DNA of 9,319 nucleotides. It comes from Geosiphon pyriformis uo1 (taxonomy: Eukaryota; Fungi; Glomeromycota). Both the position numbers and the translations under genes were made by a program. The stretch covers positions 1 through 9,319 of the forward strand of contig JAAOMT010000033.1 of the NCBI GenBank assembly GCA_016748015.1, read 5' to 3'. This document shows positions 290 through 8,960 of this stretch, piece by piece (within the stretch, counting starts at the first letter, position 1; the number at the start of each line of letters is the position of its first letter). The notes beneath the pieces are model-generated. The model worked only from the letters and a program-made list of their open reading frames with translations. It had not been told where the DNA came from and ran no database searches.

Positions 290-411
290 TATAAGAGATT
301 TGAAAATAAAAAAAAATTATTTTTGGTGTATGGGTTTTTATGTTATTTTTGCTTTGTTTTTGTGAGATTGTTTCTAAATTATAAGGAGATAACTATAATA
401 ATAAATTTAAG

Positions 412-1797
412 TTAAGTGTTCAAGTTGGGAGATTGTTCAATGACAACTATTGGTTCTAAATTTCAGGGAATATCTTCGGGATTGATTAAAAGAGAATGTG
501 TACCAATTTGTGGAATTAATGGTTCAGGATTGTGTCTGGAATTATAGTGTTTCAAATGATCTCTATGTACAACTTTTGCTAGGATTTTGTCATCAAGTCT
601 TAGCTTGTATGATTCGTTGCCTAGAATTTCATGGATAAAGAATGGTCCATCCCATTTATTTTTAAATTTTCCACTCTATTGTTTTTCAGCTTTAGTTCTG
701 TGTAAGAGAACTTTGTTTCTGATTTTAAATTTATTGGTAACTGGAGGCAATTTGTTGTCATGCTGTTTTTTTTGTTGAGCTTGGGAGTGTTTAATATGGG
801 TGGCTGCTATTCATCATTTTTTTTCCAATGTGCTAAGCAGAGTATAGGCTCTTCATTGTAGTGTTTCCTAAAAGTTGTCTTTATTAATTGGTTGTACTGG
901 ATATGTTTCCATTGTAAAACTAATTGGTAACATTGCTATCTTTCCATAGGTTAAATCAAATGGTGTGTGTTTTGTGGTATCTTGTTTTAGTGTTATATAT
1001 GCTAGTAACACTGATGGAATAAAGAGATCTCATTCTTGCTCAAAATCAATTGAGACTTTGGTTAATGATTCACACAATGTTCTGTTGAAACGTTCTACAA
1101 GTTCATTTGTTTGTGGATGGTAGGGCAAAGATAATAGTCTCTTGACATTAAATTGTTCACAAATTTTTTGGATTAAATTGTTCACAAAATGTGTTTCTTG
1201 ATCAGATAAAAGTTCTATTGGACATCCATGTCTACAAATGATGTCTTTGTAGATGAAATTTGTTACTGATTTTGCATCTGCTCATTGAATGGCTCTGGCT
1301 TCAGACCATTTGGTGAGATAGTTTATAGCTACTGCAATATAATGGTTTCCTTGGTTTGTGATAGGTAGTGGTCTGACTAAATTAATACCAACTCAGTCAA
1401 AAGGCTGTCCAACTTTGATTCGGTTTAAAGATTCTGTAGGGCGAGTTTCTCCTCTTTTTTGACAACTATTACAAGACTTAATGTATTCATGAATGTCTTT
1501 TTTCATTTGAGGCCAAAAGTAATATTCTAGTGTTCTTTGAGTGGTGCTGTCTTTTTCTAAGTGTGCTGATGAAAGGTTTGAGTGCATGTTATATAAAATG
1601 GTTTTTTTTTCATGTTCTTGTATTAATCTGAGTGGATTGTCTGGATTTCTGAAGTTTTGATAATAAATTATGTTGTTGTATAAGAAGTATTGTTTGGCTT
1701 GTTGTTGTAACTGATGTTTTTTATCTGAGGACCAATCTGTTGGGATTGTTAAAGTCTCTAAATATTGTTTGATATTGTTGTAGTTTTCAGAGTTCAT
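412..1797 (-). pseudogene. Integrase (HHCC, DDE core, GPY/F); no chromodomain seen
   Basis: ATG at 1797. HSNLSSAH...YFWPQM...CNSCQK. Core: VGINL (D>N), LSDQETHF, PYHPQTNELVERFNRTL. TPFDLTYG; KWDGPF near 640-657. TGA at 463-465 is probably a mutated sense codon; TAA at 412-414 ends the frame. Confidence 0.95.
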
Positions 1798-1848
1798 TGT
1801 TTGGTGGCTGTTTCTGTTGTTTGGATTGAGTATTGATTTATTTTTTTA

Positions 1849-3249
1849 ATCTTGTCTCATTCTTAAGAGACAGTCAACATTGGTGTGGAGTTTTCCTGGT
1901 TTGTGGTGTACTATATATCAATAGTTTGCTAGAAATTCTATCCATCGGGTTTGTTTTGCATTAAGTTGGGTGTTTTTGTTTTATAACTATTTGAGTCTAA
2001 TATTATCAGTAATAATATTGAATTCCTTTGGCCAGAGATAAAAGTTGAAATGATGTAAAGCCCATATTACTGCTGCTGTTTCGAGTTCAGTTATAGGGTA
2101 ATTCTTTTCAGCGGGTTTCAATGTTCTGCTAGCATAAGCAATTACTCGCTTATTTCCATTGTCATCCAATTGTGATAAGATAATGTTAAAGGCAGTATAA
2201 GAGGCATTTGTTGCTAATTGGAATTGGTTGCTGAAATCTGGATAGGCGAGAATTAGAGCTGTTGTTAGTTTTTCTTTGAGAATTTCAAATGTGTTTTGGT
2301 ATTCAGCAGTTCATTTGTATTCAACATTTTTGGTAATAAGCTGGTTGAGAGGTTTTGCAATTTCTGAGAATCCTTTGATAAACTTTTGATAGTAGAAGGC
2401 TAACTCTATGAATCCTCTTAGTTCTATAATGTTTCGAGGAGTTTTGAAGTTTTTGACAGTGCTGATTTTTCCAGAGTTCAGTTTGATTCTATCTTTACTA
2501 ACAATATGACCAAGGAAGGCCAAGCTTGTTTTTCCAATGTAGCATTTTTTGATGTTTAGTTTTAATCCTGCTTTCCATAATCATTGAAAAACTTCTCACA
2601 GATGTTTTAAGTATAATTCAAAAGATGGCAAATAAACATCAGTATCATCGAGATAAACAACTATGGACCTCTAAAGGAAGCCTTTGTAAACAACATCCAT
2701 GAGTCTTTGGAATGTTGCTGGTGTATTGCATAATCCAAAAAGCATTACATTGAATTCGTAATTTCCTCCTTGGGTTGTGAAGGCTGTTTTGGGGTGATCT
2801 TTGGGATCCATGGCAACTTGTCAGTATCTACTTTCTAGATCTAGTGTTGAAAAGTATTTGGATTTTCCAAGGGCATCTAACATGTCATTGATTCGGGAAA
2901 GAGAGTAGGCATCTCCAATGGTGATGTTGTTGAGTTGTCGATAATCAACACAAAATCATATCTTTCCATTTTTCTTTTTAACTAAGACCACAGGTGAGAT
3001 CCATGGACTCATTGATAGTTGAATAAGCCCATTGTTAAGCATCCATTGTACTTCTTCTTGGATAAATTGGTGACTTTCTGGAGCAACTCGGTAGGCTTGT
3101 TGTTACCTTGGTTTGGCATTTTCTGTATAGATTTGGTGTTGAACCAAATCAGTTTTTCCTAAGTCATTGTTGTTTTTAGCAAAAATATTGGCAAATTCTG
3201 CAATTAGCTCTTTAAGCTGGCTCTGTTGTTGTGGTTCAAGTTGTCCCAT
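1849..3249 (-). pseudogene. pol: Reverse transcriptase and RNase H domains
   Basis: SPWISPVVLVKKKNGKI*FCVDYRQLN, FSTLDLESRY*Q, KTAF, MLFGLCNTPATFQRLMD, YLDD (2644-2655), AFLGHIV. RNase H: LATNAS (TDAS), VIAYASRTL..AEKNYPITELETAAV, KPGKLHTNVDCLLR. Confidence 0.97.
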
Positions 3250-3687
3250 GTTGATTCAAGATAGTTTTTCCATAACAACATGGTAGTTTTCAGAGCTGGG
3301 GTTTGGGTTGATTTTTGGTAGTGAATGTCCAATGATTTCCAAGAAATTGGGAACTATTTGGAATAGTTCTTATTGAAAGATATTATTGTGAATAACTCCA
3401 ATTTCTAAGTTATTTAATAAAACTATAGGGAAATTGTTGGGATTGTAAAAAGTAACTCGGATTTTCTTTGTTTTTTCTGGAATATAAATGTTTGGGATCA
3501 AAATATTATGTTTCAAATAAATTTGTTCATTGGACTCAAAAATTTGTTGTGTGGTTGTTGGCTTTTCACAAGTGTAAATTTCAGGGTGTTCTCCAAAAAG
3601 TGAAATGGTAATTGGTTGTGGAAGTCATAAAATCTGGTGAGATTCATATTGTTTGTTAAGAGCTATGTTTACCGGAACTGTGAATCG

Positions 3688-4110
3688 TCCAGTTGAACCA
3701 AAACCTTGGGTTCCTCTATCACTTTTTTCTAATTGTTCTCTTTGATTGACTAATTGCAAACCTGAAATGTTGATTAGAGATAGGTAAATAGCTTGGACAA
3801 TTTTTTCAACATGTTCGATCTTGAAAGATTTATTGGTTTCATTTTGGAGTATTACTGTTATATTACCAGTATATCCAGCATCAATTATTCCTCCTCTGAC
3901 ATTGATTTCTTTGCTTGCCAGAGAGAACCAAAAGGCAATTTGAACCATTGCTCCTGTTGGAATTTCAAAGGCAATTTTGAGATTGATTTTTGTGAAAGAT
4001 TTGGGTTTGAGAACAAGAGTATCCTTGTCTGAATATCTTAAGTTATATCCAGCATTAATTTCATGTGCTTTTTTGGGTTTTATTTCTTGTCCATTGTTGT
4101 TGAAGTATTT
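3688..4110 (-). pseudogene. dut: Trimeric dUTPase domain
   Basis: All five motifs in order: I AGYNL (AGYDL, 4039-4053), II FWFSLA (SRSSLA after reverting C>T), III GGIIDAGYTG, IV KIVQ, V RGTQGFGSTG (3688-3717). Confidence 0.93.
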
Positions 4111-4239
4111 GAGTTGTAAGGCAGGCTGATTTTTGATAAGATAGATAGGTGTTGCTTCAATTTCTTTTGTTGCTTCAGGTTCTCCAAATTCAATTTCATT
4201 TTCATCATTTTCACTGGGCAGGAAAATGCTAAGAGCATA

Positions 4240-4860
4240 GCATTTAGGACATCACTGTTCATCACAAGACATAATGCATTTTTCACATAGCCTAATGTTC
4301 ATTTGCTCCAATCATTGAATTTGAGCTTCTTGGATTGGGTAAGTGTGACTTGCAATTTGGTGGTAGACTTCTACTTTATCTTCATAATTGAATCCAGCTA
4401 ATTCTATGGTGTATTCAATGTATTCTGCTTTTTTCATTTGATGGACATCTTTTTTGGTAGCTCTATTAACTAATGCCATTGCTAGGTCGAAAATCATCTC
4501 AGCATCATGGGGGTAGTGATAAAGTTTGTTGAGAGCATTGTTGTATGCTGCATCAAAAGGTGTTCCTCTTTTGACTTTTTCTGAAATTGATAAAGCATAT
4601 TGGCAGGTCTGATTGCAGACTTCTTTTCTCATTGTTACATCAATCCAATTGCATTCTTTTGGTAGCATATCTCCACAAGTCAAACAAAGGGTGTTGTCTC
4701 ATTTTCCGCTTCTTTTTATTAGATGGCCCTATTGTTCTCTGTGACAAGCCTTGCAGTAATAACAAGTATGATTTTTATATTTTTCTTCAGGTAAAATGCA
4801 GGCTCCCATTGATGAGAGTTTCTTGTGGCAATCTTTGCATTTGAGTGGAATGTAAGGGCA
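4240..4860 (-). other. Cys-rich putative multi-zinc-binding domain inside the polyprotein
   Basis: Reading the polyprotein frame through stops gives CKDC, CYYCKAC, CLTC, CNQTC, a ~100-aa non-Cys segment, then CEKCIMSCDEQ*CPKC. Confidence 0.7.
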
Positions 4861-5079
4861 TTGTTTTCATGGTTCTGGTTTTAAATAGGGGACATTCCAT
4901 CTGGTTGTTACTGGTTTTTTTGTTTCAAAAAAATCATTTGTTGAAAAGTACTGTTGTTTAGTTTCATCAGCCCAATTGGAAGTTGATCCAAGTGCCATAA
5001 ATGTTTCAATGATGGGCTTTTTTTCTTCTGGTTCGAATTCAAAAGCCGGGGCTTTTTTGGAGCATTTGTTGAATGTATC

Positions 5080-5445
5080 ACAAGTGGCAGGTACCCAGAC
5101 ATGTTGTCCTTGGTAAGAGATTGTTAACTCTTGTGTCTCCCAATTCAGATTAGCATTGGCTTTTTGAAGCCAATTATTTCCAACGAGAGCTTGGTATTGG
5201 GAAGCATCCATGACTAAAACTTTGACTGGAATGGTAATTCCATCAATTGTGAATGGGAAGTTGTCAATTTCTTTTACTGGAGTCTTTTTCATGCCATCAG
5301 CAGTGACAATGATTGTCTGAGCTGGTCGGTCAACGTTTCTTTTTAGCTGTTGCATCAATTGATATGTGATGATGCTTTCAGCAAATTCACTGTCTAGGAT
5401 CAAGCGAATTGGCTTTTTTTCTACTTCAGCTTCTGTGTACATTGC
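5080..5445 (-). pseudogene. Retropepsin-like aspartic protease domain
   Basis: PIRLILDSEFAESII (DSG>DSE, 5386-5394), flap-like VTADG, and C-terminal ALVGNNWL (LxGxDxL-type). Confidence 0.9.
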
Positions 5446-7473
5446 AATGATGGCTTTTTGTTTGTTAGCCGCTACATTGCTAAGCAAGAATGGTAATTCA
5501 TTTGCTTCAAATTTGAAAGAGAATATATCTGAAAGGTTGGTATTTTTAGCAATTTTGGCTGGTAGGATTGTGGTAGAAGTATAGAAAGGGTTTTGTTGTT
5601 GTGCTGCAGCTCTACCTTCTGAGAGTGCAATATGGCAAAAATCCTGTTCTTCTGGTATTATAAGATAACTAGATTGAATATGATAGTGGTTGGGTCTTGG
5701 TTGAGCTGAATTTTGGGAAACTAATTGGTTGTTCAAATTGATTCTATTGTTGTTTACTTGGTATCGGTTTTGTGGTGTGAATTGATTTTGCAGAATTAAT
5801 CTTCGAGCAGGCACTTGATAATGTTGTGTGAGTGGTTGTTGGTATTGCTGTTGAATTGGCTGTGGAGCAGGCTGATAATAGTTATTTTGGAATTGGAGTC
5901 TTGATAAATAGTAAGCTGGTGGTGGTGGTTGATAATAAGATTGCTGTGGTAGAGGGTAATGTTGATTACTCCTATTTTGTTGGTCTTATTATAGCTTTCT
6001 GCAATCTCTTTTCCAGTGGCCAGGGATTCCACAGTAATGGTAATTCTGAGGCTAGTTATTAGAAAGTAGTGCAAAGTTATTTTGATTTCATTTTTGGAGT
6101 GGTTGATATCTTTGGGGTTGCTGTTGTTGTTGGTTGGTGAAATAGTTTTCAATCTTCTTTGTGAGTTGGTCAATTTTCTTCTTAGCTGTTGAACTGGTTT
6201 CTTCAATTGCCAAATTTACAAGTTTTGTGCAATTGGCCTCTTCTATGGCCATTTCGTATCTTTTTACATGCTGTATGGCAGAGTTTAAATCTTTTGGGGC
6301 ATGTGGGCGAACCTTTTTAATCAGTTTATCCTTTAGACCAGTAATAAATTGATCCAAGATTTGAATGTTTGAGTAATAATCATTGGTTTTTAGTTGACAA
6401 ATCCTTCTGAGAAGTTTGTTAAACTTTTCAAGATAAGTCATAACAGATTTGAAGAATTTTTGTTTGATATTGTGAAACTGATTTCGAAGGGTGATGGAGG
6501 TATTATTGTCAATGAACTGTTTAAAGAAGACTGCTTTGAAAGCATCCCAATCATTGAATGGAGCAGCCAAGTTTTCAAACCATTTTTCTGCTGTTCCTTT
6601 GAAAAAATAGGGGATAATTCTTAACATTCTGACAGCATTCCAACCATTTGCATCTCCTGCTTTAAAGACTTGATCAAGCCATTCTTGAGGACTGGTTTCG
6701 ATGTCCTCTTCTGAAAAGTCAGGGATTTTTGCAATATAAGTAAAGACTATTTCTTCTTCGTTTTCTGAGTCTTCTGTTTCTTGTTCTGATTCGGTTTTTT
6801 CACTTTGATTTTCTGCTAAGTAGTCAATAAGGTTTGTGCTGGTTGATATTGGTTCTTGTTGTTGAATAAGACTTTTGGGTAACTGAAAATCTTCTATTCT
6901 TGAAAATCGAATAAGAGAAGAATTTGGTGTTTGTGGTTGAGCAAGTGAAATTGAAAATGGTATAATAGAAAGTGTCAATTTGACACTGGTTTCTTGTTCA
7001 GGTGTTTGCAAGTGTTTGGCAGTTGTCTTTGTCAGTATTGGAGTGTTTGAAGTGGTTTTTGAGTGTTGTTTTGCTTTTTGTTTGCCTTTGTTGCTTGTTT
7101 TTGTTTTTAATTCAGAGTCAAAAGTGTATTTAGACTGCACTAAATATTTTTCTTTGCAATACTTGATAATGTTATAATTGAGTTCTTGAAAGTAGGTGGC
7201 AAGTGTTTTACTGTTAAGGTCTTCAGTTTCTAATTGTGAATAATACACTAAATTATTGTAGAGATTGCTTCTAACTTCTGAAATGTTGTAATTTCCAAGA
7301 AGATAATTGTTGATACAGTTTTCAATATATAGATAAAGTGTTCTCTTGACAATTTCAGTTCTGTCTGGAATGTTAAATCTTTGCTTGCAATGGATGTAAA
7401 TTGACTGGTAATACTCTAGAGTTGCTGTGTCTGGTGTGGTTGCCACTTTGAATTTTTGTTGTTGCTGTGTTAT
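5446..7473 (-). pseudogene. gag: gag with long N-terminal extension, retrotransposon capsid-like domain, zinc knuckle and Q/P/Y-rich linker
   Basis: ORF 6088..7446 has capsid-like text (IPDFSEED...PQEWLDQV...ANGW...GTAEKWF...FFKQF...LRNQFHNIKQ...SVMTYLEKFNKL...QFITGLK). It continues in frame through stops at 6088 (TGA), 6052 (TAG) and 5989 (TAA) into ORF 4867..5814. The start is inferred as a mutated ATG (ATA at 7471-7473). Confidence 0.9.
6001..6042 (-). other. CCHC zinc knuckle (nucleocapsid), first Cys mutated
   Basis: Reads Y-H-Y-C-G-I-P-G-H-W-K-R-D-C, matching Cx2Cx4Hx4C with TGC>TAC at the first Cys. Confidence 0.9.
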
Positions 7474-7491
7474 TTCCGTGGGAAAGCACCA
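7474..7491 (-). promoter_or_regulatory. tRNA primer-binding site (PBS)
   Basis: TGGTGCTTTCCCACGGAA starts 2 nt after the LTR-terminal CA. Its complement TT-CCGTG-GGAAAGC-A-CCA fits tRNA positions 59-76, with the conserved C61. The isoacceptor is not identified. Confidence 0.85.
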
Positions 7492-7493
7492 AA

Positions 7494-8192
7494 TGTTACC
7501 AAAAGTTTTTGGTCTCTTCTTAGCTCTTGTATGTTTGTTGTAATGCTGTTAATTCATGACTATGGGAAGTGTTTGAACCTCCGATAACTGAATTTTATCT
7601 TCAAATTATTTCCTATAATTTGAACTGCTAGGCTTATAAGTGGAATGGCCAGTTCCGTGCCAGTTGCTTTGTGTAGTTACATTGTAGTAAATGTCAACTC
7701 TTTCTCAGGAATCGCTTGTCTGGAAGCTCACTAAAAATGTGTAGTTACTTTACTATGAAAGTCAACTCTTCTACAGAAATCTCGTTTGTAGGCTACCCTA
7801 ATGATTGTAATAAAAAAAGAAAAGAAAAATAAAAAAAATGTAAAAAAAATAGAATTCTGTCAAGAGAAATGTTTTCTATCCAGACCTGGAGTGACTAACA
7901 GTTTACTGAAATTGGTAGTTAATCAATTTTAAAACATTAGTTGGTTTTTGAGGATTTTCTAAGTACAATAATTAAAGAATTTGGTTTTTCAAATTTATTT
8001 GATTTTTTTTTTTTGTGTGTATAGGAATAATTCTAAGTAATAAATCTCAAGTAAGATATATTTTCTTGAAGAAAAAAGCTCTTTTTTTATACAACTTATT
8101 GTAACACTATTCTATGAACTTGAACTTTGTTCTTTTCTACAATTTCGCTGAACTTAAGATACATTTCGGCGAACTACAAGTTATTTCTGCAA
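7494..8192 (-). repeat. 5' LTR of element A, truncated (699 bp)
   Basis: Aligns with 8193-8898. There are 18 differences, all transitions, in the first 187 bp. It ends (minus strand) in GGTAACA next to the PBS. Confidence 0.92.
7671..7794 (-). repeat. Two 68-bp-period imperfect repeats, each a double hairpin (LTR copy A)
   Basis: gtgtagttac at 7671 and 7739; gtcaactctt at 7693 and 7761; internal inverted repeats. Confidence 0.75.
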
Positions 8193-8369
8193 TGTTATTG
8201 GAGGTTTTTGGTTTCTTTTTAGCTCTTGTATGTTTGTTGTAGTGCTGTTAATTTATGACTATGGAAAGTGTTTGAACCTCCAATAACTGAATTTTATCTT
8301 CAAATTATCTCCTATAATTTGAACTGCTGGGCTTATAAATGGAATGGCCAATTCTGTGTCAGTTGCTTC

Positions 8370-8493
8370 GTGTAGTTACATTGTAGTAAATGTCAACTCT
8401 TTTCCAAGAATTGCTTGTCTGGAAGCTCACTAAAAATGTGTAGTTACTTTGCTGTGAAAGTCAACTCTTCTACAGGAATCTCGTCTGTAGGCT
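8370..8493 (-). repeat. Two 68-bp-period imperfect repeats, each a double hairpin (LTR copy B)
   Basis: Same units at +699: agttacatt-gtagta-aatgtcaact (8374-8398), agttacttt-gctgtg-aaagtcaact (8442-8466), and ctacag-9nt-ctgtag (8470-8490). Confidence 0.75.
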
Positions 8494-8790
8494 ACTCTAA
8501 TGATTATAATAAGAAAATAAAAGAAAGAAAATAAAAAAATGTAAAAGAAATAGAATTCTGTAAAGGGAAACATTTTCTATCCAGGTCTAGAGTTACTAAC
8601 AGTTTACTGAAATTGGTAGCTAATCAATTTTAAAACATTAGTTGGGTTTTTGGAGATTTTCCAAGTGCAATATTTTAAAAAAAATTGGTTTTTTGAATTA
8701 TTTGATATTTTATTTCTTTTTGTGTGTGTAGGAATGATTCTAAATGATAAATCTGAATAAGATACATTTTCTTGAAGAGAGAAGCTTGTC

Positions 8791-8797
8791 TTTTATA
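8791..8797 (-). promoter_or_regulatory. Candidate LTR TATA box (also at 8085-8091)
   Basis: TATAAAA on the minus strand in both LTR copies, about 55 bp downstream of the repeat array. The DNA is AT-rich, so a chance match is possible. Confidence 0.5.
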
Positions 8798-8850
8798 CAA
8801 CTTATCATATCACTATTCTATGAACTTGAACTTTGTTCTTTTTTACAATT

Positions 8851-8960
8851 TTGCTGAACTAAAGATATATTTTGGTGAACTACAAGTTATTTTTGTGAAC
8901 TATTAGATATTTTGGTGAACTATTAATTATTTCGGTGAATTTCTACAAATTTCAGCAAAC
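8851..8960. repeat. About six ~20-bp-period degenerate repeats in U3
   Basis: ttgctgaac (8851), tttggtgaac (8871), ttttgtgaac (8891), tttggtgaac (8911), ttcggtgaat (8931), ttcagcaaac (8951). The other LTR copy has ttcgctgaac and ttcggcgaac. Confidence 0.8.

What the first reader, a model, noticed from the sequence alone, without database searches (positions are those of the whole stretch)
412..7473. 7 kb single frame with ~30 stops and no frameshift: transition-only hypermutation
Seen: my manual count is about 31 in-frame stops, each one transition away from CGA, CAA, CAG or TGG. Catalytic motifs decay the same way (TDAS>TNAS, DSG>DSE, GID>GIN, AGYDL>AGYNL), and 18 of 18 LTR differences over 187 bp are transitions. 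Both strands are hit, in CG, CA, CC and TC contexts. Established: Neurospora RIP prefers CpA, and methyl-C deamination usually shows at CpG. Inference: this points to a broad-context, RIP-like or deamination-based genome defence, notable if the host is a Glomeromycotina/Mucoromycota fungus.
Basis: partly seen in the sequence, partly recalled or inferred. Interest (0 to 1): 0.7.

Follow-up and report, generated by a model that had tools for sequence, protein, structure and literature searches.

The report
C-to-T erosion of Geosiphon retrotransposons
A dead jumping gene, likely from the symbiotic fungus Geosiphon, and its sister copies have lost about one in nine cytosines to C-to-T changes on both strands and in every context, about thirty times more often than any single transversion, which is likely the scar of a slow methylation-linked mutator acting on repeats, though its restriction to repeats is untested.

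Summary
The window holds a dead Ty3/Gypsy element (gag, protease, dUTPase, RT, RNase H, integrase) in one minus-strand frame with 32 internal stops; the best protein matches in gag-protease and dUTPase are all Geosiphon pyriformis gene models. Against pooled sister copies, 222 of 319 differences are C>T/G>A losses in this copy and 38 are transversions, so it is not transition-only. Across 240 gene models, non-CpG C>T is 10.6% per site against 0.37% per transversion type. CpG is 4-6 times hotter, and C after a pyrimidine about 2.6 times hotter than after a purine. Mutations look independent, strand-balanced and unclustered, unlike APOBEC, UV or one RIP episode, and CpA is not preferred. Corrections: the 'LTRs' are a tandem 700-bp duplication that includes the gag 5' end; the stop at 1848 is native; and 'one transition from a sense codon' is true of any stop. 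Best reading: chronic, methylation-linked C>T mutation of silenced repeats (0.55). A genome-wide bias could not be excluded (0.27). The scan noted similar decay in Endogonales, and the separate integrase elsewhere in this genome.

The parts
414..7716 (-). Dead Ty3/Gypsy coding region in one frame with no frameshift; 32 internal stops between 465 and 6090
   Evidence: sister gene models match in frame up to 7716
6238..6618 (-). Gag capsid (PF03732, PF19259)
5113..5436 (-). Aspartic protease (PF08284, PF13650); DSG decayed to DSE
   Evidence: G in 71 of 98 sister models at 5388
3688..4077 (-). dUTPase (PF00692)
2330..3105 (-). Reverse transcriptase, broken by several stops; limits approximate
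   Evidence: recognised from recalled motifs (YLDD and others) in the translation; the two short RT fragments scanned (2648-2827, 2314-2580) gave no Pfam hit
1990..2310 (-). RNase H (PF17919, PF17917); TDAS decayed to TNAS
1846..1848 (-). Native stop after RNase H (TAG in the family, TAA in this copy)
   Evidence: 98% of pooled depth reads TAG
465..1797 (-). Integrase as a separate ORF from the ATG at 1797 (PF17921, PF00665); 3' end approximate
   Evidence: homologue C-termini project to 420-558
7492..8190 (.).
8191..8895 (.). Tandem duplication, copy 2; 66 transitions and 14 transversions against copy 1
8848..8939 (.). 20-bp unit, 4.6 copies, at the outer end of the duplication

Best explanation
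This is one of many dead copies of a Ty3/Gypsy family, likely in Geosiphon pyriformis, whose cytosines have changed to thymine independently on both strands, fastest at CpG, next after a pyrimidine and slowest after a purine, likely because host methyltransferases keep the silenced copies methylated in CpG and non-CpG contexts and those cytosines are slowly lost during vegetative growth. Shown: the element, the directional spectrum, the context ranking, and the independence and strand balance of the changes. Inferred: that the copies were methylated; that a DNMT1/DNMT5-type enzyme explains the CpG part and a DIM-2-type enzyme the non-CpG part; that the process is confined to repeats; and that it acts as a defence by permanently disabling copies. 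It works like the Dim2-dependent mitotic C>T mutator of Zymoseptoria tritici, with a different target rule.
For: DNA level: 113 G>A plus 109 C>T losses in this copy against pooled copies, 59 in the reverse sense and 38 transversions, of 319 places. In a fully listed 421-bp stretch, 16 of the 18 C/G losses are outside CpG. Family level (240 gene models; 1020 of 1067 well-covered codons given a parent): C>T 11.3% of observations, T>C 0.9%, transversion classes 0.3-0.6%. Non-CpG C>T is 10.6% at 651 sites and seen at 93% of them, against 0.37% and 5.7% for 3285 transversion sites. E>K is 17.6% and K>E 0.09%. CpG hazard is 0.46-0.63 per strand against 0.106 elsewhere, a ranking expected from 5mC. 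No strand overdispersion (chi2 202 on 240), no clustering, star-like sharing (observed/expected 0.95). Rates run 0.81-1.23 of expectation along 12 bins. Literature passages: the AMF clade has DNMT1, DNMT2, DNMT5, DIM-2 and RID (PMC8298701); R. irregularis TEs are CG-methylated (PMC8647823); the Mucoromycota fungus Phycomyces has DIM2 and shows CG plus CHH methylation on LTR elements (PMC11258239); Dim2 drives over 95% C>T in mitosis (PMC8016269). Unmethylated S. pombe has Ts/Tv 0.72 (PMC4704713), far from about 7 here.
Against: Restriction to repeats, methylation and the presence of the enzymes in this host were not tested. A 5'-pyrimidine preference is not a described DIM-2 rule (CpT methylation in Neurospora, CpA mutation in Zymoseptoria), and CCG/TCG are hot in S. 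cerevisiae, which has little or no methylation (PMC4704713). In Zymoseptoria CpG is spared, whereas here it is the hottest context. The gene models are the best-scoring 120 of 441 and 120 of 323 hits, are stop-free by annotation, and some come from the same element, so loads are biased low and the dispersion tests are weakened. CpG columns were hand-picked (7 plus 13).
Confidence: 0.55

Rival explanations
1. A genome-wide C>T mutation bias, such as time-dependent cytosine deamination in long-dormant spores or weak uracil or T:G repair, with ordinary CpG methylation on top. Repeats only show it because they are free of selection.
For: Clock-like, independent, strand-balanced changes. The genome is AT-rich, 29.25% GC (PMC9453076, table passage). 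A CCG/TCG preference exists in yeast with little or no methylation (PMC4704713). The tandem duplication is not hit harder than the rest (11% of C/G per copy).
Against: The measured rates would drive neutral DNA to roughly 5-10% GC (my arithmetic), yet the genome is 29% GC and third codon positions of this element are still 29% GC. This is weak, because nothing need be at equilibrium. Earlier, unchecked notes on Endogonales report that genes and introns are spared there.
Confidence: 0.27
2. True RIP: homology-triggered, RID-dependent mutation in a premeiotic or parasexual stage, applied in many weak rounds so that strand runs are blurred.
For: Two-strand C>T on a high-copy repeat. RID is listed for the AMF clade (PMC8298701, one passage). 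Load is overdispersed between copies (chi2 406 on 239).
Against: No CpA preference (8.6% against CpC 11.3% and CpT 8.0%). TpA/ApT is 0.69 and (CpA+TpG)/(ApC+GpT) is 1.52, the opposite of the recalled RIP thresholds. No same-strand runs (0.546 against 0.539 +/- 0.007). The linked tandem duplication is not hit harder. Overdispersion can simply reflect copy age.
Confidence: 0.12
3. A deaminase (APOBEC/AID-like) acting on the element's cDNA, or UV damage at dipyrimidines in this soil-surface fungus.
For: TpC > CpC > purine-C ranking (median 13.2% against 5.0%, 236 and 261 sites). The element carries a dUTPase.
Against: cDNA editing should be strand-biased and clustered, and neither is seen. UV should give excess CC>TT, but 89 were observed against 99.7 expected at 73 sites. 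Purine-C sites are still about 18-fold above transversions.
Confidence: 0.06

Closest known systems
Dim2-dependent mitotic C>T mutation of methylated repeats in Zymoseptoria tritici (PMC8016269, passages)
   Same: Overwhelmingly C>T; gradual accumulation; proposed to contribute to TE inactivation without the sexual cycle
   Different: There over 98% of the changes are at CpA and CpG is spared; here all four 3' contexts are hit, CpG most, with a 5'-pyrimidine preference. There the enzyme link is supported by strain comparison and an evolution experiment; here it is inferred.
Repeat-induced point mutation of Neurospora crassa (RID-dependent)
   Same: C:G to T:A on both strands of repeated DNA, leaving ORFs full of stops without frameshifts
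   Different: No CpA preference, RIP indices point the other way, no strand-coordinated runs, and the linked duplication is not hit harder
TpCpG hypermutation of Pucciniomycotina TEs (PMC3318451, passages)
   Same: CpG is hot and a 5' T helps
   Different: There partial matches to TpCpG were not elevated in Microbotryum; here non-CpG cytosines carry most of the changes
Ordinary CpG decay by 5mC deamination in CG-methylated fungal repeats (PMC4352252, passages)
   Same: CpG observed/expected 0.18; 103 of 363 observations at CGY codons are intact
   Different: Does not account for about 10% loss at non-CpG cytosines
Ty3/Gypsy (Metaviridae) LTR retrotransposons of Glomeromycotina with a stand-alone integrase
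   Same: Gag-PR-RT-RH-INT order; integrase homologues in Rhizophagus and metagenomes are separate proteins of about 420 aa
   Different: This copy is dead, carries a dUTPase, has a tandem duplication of its 5' end and shows no LTR pair within the window

Membership tests
RIP (RID-dependent) | C:G to T:A transitions on both strands of repeated DNA, far above other changes | tested here: met
RIP (RID-dependent) | CpA preference, TpA excess | tested here: not met
   CpA 8.6%, CpC 11.3%, CpT 8.0%, CpG highest; TpA/ApT 0.69
RIP (RID-dependent) | Episodic, strand-coordinated mutation; linked duplications hit hardest | tested here: not met
   no strand overdispersion or runs; duplication 11% per C/G. 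Many rounds could blur this signal.
RIP (RID-dependent) | Restricted to repeated DNA, triggered by homology | not testable with these tools
   no genome held; no related loci found
RIP (RID-dependent) | Needs RID and a premeiotic stage | not testable with these tools
   host proteome not searchable; RID is listed for the AMF clade only in a passage of PMC8298701
Dim2-type mitotic mutator | Gradual, independent C>T at non-CpG cytosines of TEs | tested here: met
   (inferred from standing copies, not from an evolution experiment)
Dim2-type mitotic mutator | CpA target with CpG spared (Zymoseptoria rule) | tested here: not met
Dim2-type mitotic mutator | Non-CG 5mC on the elements and an intact DIM-2 | not testable with these tools
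   no methylome or host genome available
APOBEC-type cDNA editing | Strand-biased, clustered G>A on the coding strand | tested here: not met
   113 against 109 by strand; no clustering
Ty3/Gypsy LTR retrotransposon | Gag, protease, RT, RNase H, then integrase | tested here: met
   RT by recalled motifs
Ty3/Gypsy LTR retrotransposon | Flanking LTR pair with target-site duplication | tested here: inconclusive
   none within the window; the ends may lie outside it

The most novel reading that the evidence does not exclude
Glomeromycotina have a repeat-directed, sex-independent cytosine mutator with its own target rule (CpG > TpC > CpC > purine-C, both strands) that standard RIP indices cannot see. 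With the similar decay this scan noted in Endogonales, this would mean mutagenic genome defence is ancestral to Mucoromycota plus Dikarya and RIP is a later, CpA-specialised form.
Probability: 0.3. Interest if true: 0.78.

Novelty: new variant of a known kind. Interest (0 to 1): 0.5.

Why it matters
RIP-like mutation is described as restricted to Ascomycota (PMC12543289, abstract and section 9) and as undetected in Gigaspora margarita and Mucoromycotina (PMC8647823, citing Venice 2020, which I did not see). Geosiphon was not found in the 12 of 19 supplementary files of that survey that were searched, which include the species table. If the process is repeat-specific, a largely clonal symbiont lineage has a permanent, sex-independent way to kill transposons, with a target rule that CpA-based indices miss. 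There are also practical consequences. Divergence-based TE landscapes for this genome would overstate ages, because most of the divergence is C>T while transversions are under 1% per site. And hundreds of annotated 'hypothetical proteins' are fragments of dead elements.

Tried and rejected
The whole genome is not held. No related loci were found in viral contigs (4 pattern matches, none confirmed) or metagenome contigs (226 matches, none confirmed). No RNA holder was listed. Runs X2 and X3 laid only 3 and 1 contigs and were not used. The RNase H-integrase search listed no hit named as Geosiphon among the best 120 of 1249, so the family-level spectrum covers gag to the start of RT only. Members of 10 integrase clusters from other fungi and metagenomes were fetched, but their spectrum was not computed, so whether related elements in Rhizophagus or Paraglomus show the same non-CpG excess is open. 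Rejected: the LTR reading of the 700-bp repeats; 'transition-only'; a single gag-pol ORF through 1848; APOBEC-type editing; UV. The missing frameshifts need no special cause: no indel reached 40% share in run X1 over 4.5 kb, and only about 0.8 transversions per 100 bp have accumulated, so few indels are expected. Not-in-print searches: searches found no paper on C>T hypermutation in Geosiphon. The Geosiphon genome paper (Malar 2021), Sorwar 2024 and Venice 2020 were not seen, and any of them or their supplements may bear on novelty.
Full report
What is there. The minus-strand frame read from 7548 has 33 stops between 412 and 7548, against 129-180 in the other five frames. Pfam places gag, aspartic protease, dUTPase, RNase H and both integrase domains in that frame, in Ty3/Gypsy order. 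6 of the 10 fragments scanned had hits; the two short RT fragments had none, and I recognised RT from recalled motifs. All 120 listed hits of 441 for the protease region, and all 120 of 323 for the dUTPase region, are Geosiphon pyriformis gene models, at most 85% identical. The host is therefore likely G. pyriformis, whose genome is 41.2% LTR sequence (PMC11952901, passages) and 29.25% GC (PMC9453076, passages). No genome is held for the window.

The 'LTRs' are adjacent copies of a 700-bp unit (7492-8190 and 8191-8895) that includes gag-homologous sequence, so they are a tandem duplication of the 5' end. They differ by 66 transitions and 14 transversions: 26 of 26 are transitions in the first 300 bp, and many of the transversions sit in A/T runs. 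The stop at 1846-1848 is native, since 98% of pooled depth reads TAG. None of 120 integrase homologues extends upstream of it, and their median start projects onto the ATG at 1797. Every stop codon is one transition from CAA, CAG, CGA or TGG, so that argument is empty.

Spectrum at DNA level. Contigs of run X1 (26,987 laid at 80% likeness) act as a pool of sister copies. At places in 400-4900 where at least 40% of depth differs from the window, the window has A for pooled G 113 times and T for pooled C 109 times. The reverse occurs 59 times and transversions 38 times, of 319 places; only 40 rows were printed. The process is thus directional and strand-balanced, but about 12% of differences are transversions. 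In 1640-2060 all 27 places were printed: 18 are C/G losses in this copy and only 2 of these are at CpG. X1 may be the sample the window came from, so it serves as a source of paralogues, not as independent support.

Spectrum across the family. I aligned the 240 gene models to the frame and gave a parent codon to 1020 of the 1067 columns with 15 or more copies. C>T (either strand) makes up 11.3% of observations at 681 sites, T>C 0.9% at 990, and the four transversion classes 0.3-0.6%. Non-CpG C>T alone is 10.6% at 651 sites, against 0.37% at 3285 transversion sites, about 29-fold. Paired replacements show the direction: E>K 17.6% against K>E 0.09%, G>E 14.6% against E>G 0.3%, C>Y 5.7% against Y>C 0.04%. 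The window copy differs from the majority at 96 of 773 codons, 83 of them C>T/G>A by my hand count. For scale, unmethylated S. pombe has Ts/Tv 0.72 (PMC4704713, passages).

Context. With the 3' neighbour fixed by the protein, CpA is 8.6% (38 sites), CpC 11.3% (190) and CpT 8.0% (58). CpG sites often fail the majority filter, so I took 7 CGY and 13 CGA-type columns by hand. At the CGY columns 103 of 363 observations are intact; per-strand hazards are 0.63 and 0.46, against 0.106 for non-CpG. C after a pyrimidine mutates more than C after a purine (median 13.2% at 236 sites against 5.0% at 261; TpC highest). TpA/ApT is 0.69 and (CpA+TpG)/(ApC+GpT) is 1.52, the wrong way for RIP by the thresholds I recall, so index-based surveys would miss this.

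Dynamics. Per-model load runs from 2.6% to 28.1% (quartiles 9.4-13.6%) and is mildly overdispersed (chi2 406 on 239). There is no strand overdispersion (chi2 202 on 240). Neighbouring mutations lie on the same strand 0.546 of the time, against 0.539 +/- 0.007 simulated. Sharing between copies is 0.95 of the independent expectation, although 131 of 13,030 pairs share over 60%. Tandem CC>TT doubles are 89 against 99.7 expected. The linked duplication lost 11% of C/G per copy, no more than the rest. Limits: the models are the best-scoring hits, are stop-free by annotation and are partly from the same elements; they cover gag to the start of RT only; and site rates in the simulations come from the same data.

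Mechanism. The ranking CpG > TpC > CpC > purine-C, with slow, independent, two-strand loss, fits cytosines kept methylated in silenced copies and lost over vegetative time. The AMF clade is reported to hold DNMT1, DNMT2, DNMT5, DIM-2 and RID (PMC8298701, one passage). R. irregularis TEs are CG-methylated (PMC8647823, passages), and Phycomyces LTR elements carry CG and CHH methylation with DIM2 present (PMC11258239, passages). In Zymoseptoria, Dim2 gives over 95% C>T in mitosis, but at CpA with CpG spared (PMC8016269, passages). I give this reading 0.55. A genome-wide bias gets 0.27 because I could not examine single-copy neutral DNA; the only argument against it is that these rates imply roughly 5-10% equilibrium GC while the genome is 29%, which is weak. 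Classical RIP gets 0.12, and a deaminase or UV 0.06.

Novelty. Eight literature searches found no report of this in Geosiphon. The largest survey restricts RIP-like signatures to Ascomycota (PMC12543289: passages, abstract and section 9). 'Geosiphon' was absent from the 12 of its 19 supplementary files that were searched, including the species table. RIP outside Dikarya has been proposed, with caveats, for Entomophthorales (PMC11105155, passages). TpCpG and CpG signatures are known in basidiomycetes (PMC3318451, PMC4352252, passages), and PMC13297926 (passages) reviews the enzymes. Malar 2021, Sorwar 2024 and Venice 2020 were not seen. Unchecked notes from this scan describe similar transposon C>T decay in Endogonales, with CpT spared in some; here CpT is not spared. 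The comparison with related elements of other mycorrhizal fungi (proteins fetched) remains open. Verdict: a real and strong signal, a new variant of methylation-linked repeat mutation if it proves repeat-specific, and not a member of canonical RIP on the features tested.

Noticed in passing
window 1846-1848 and 1797 (minus strand): Native stop after RNase H and a separate ATG for integrase; homologous integrases in Rhizophagus and metagenomes are stand-alone proteins of about 420 aa (116 of 120 start with M).
   Followed up: yes
window 3688-4077 (minus strand): dUTPase between protease and RT in a Ty3/Gypsy element, preceded by a Cys/His-rich stretch (about 4250-4870) whose one scanned fragment (4315-4698) had no Pfam hit.
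   Followed up: partly
window 7492-8895 and 8848-8939: Tandem 700-bp duplication of the leader and gag start, ending in a 20-bp x 4.6 array; its divergence suggests it is about as old as the insertion.
   Followed up: partly
hits: At least 240 G. pyriformis 'hypothetical protein' gene models in NCBI are fragments of this decayed element family, which inflates the gene count.
   Followed up: partly
clusters 6 and 8 (P0435, P0436, P0470): Integrases labelled as Cytophagaceae or Nitrososphaeraceae MAG proteins fall in clusters of this fungal-type integrase; likely misbinned fungal contigs.
   Followed up: no
window 1803-1846: Pooled depth collapses and contigs run on with other letters in the spacer between the native stop and the integrase start, suggesting subfamily-specific spacers.
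   Followed up: no
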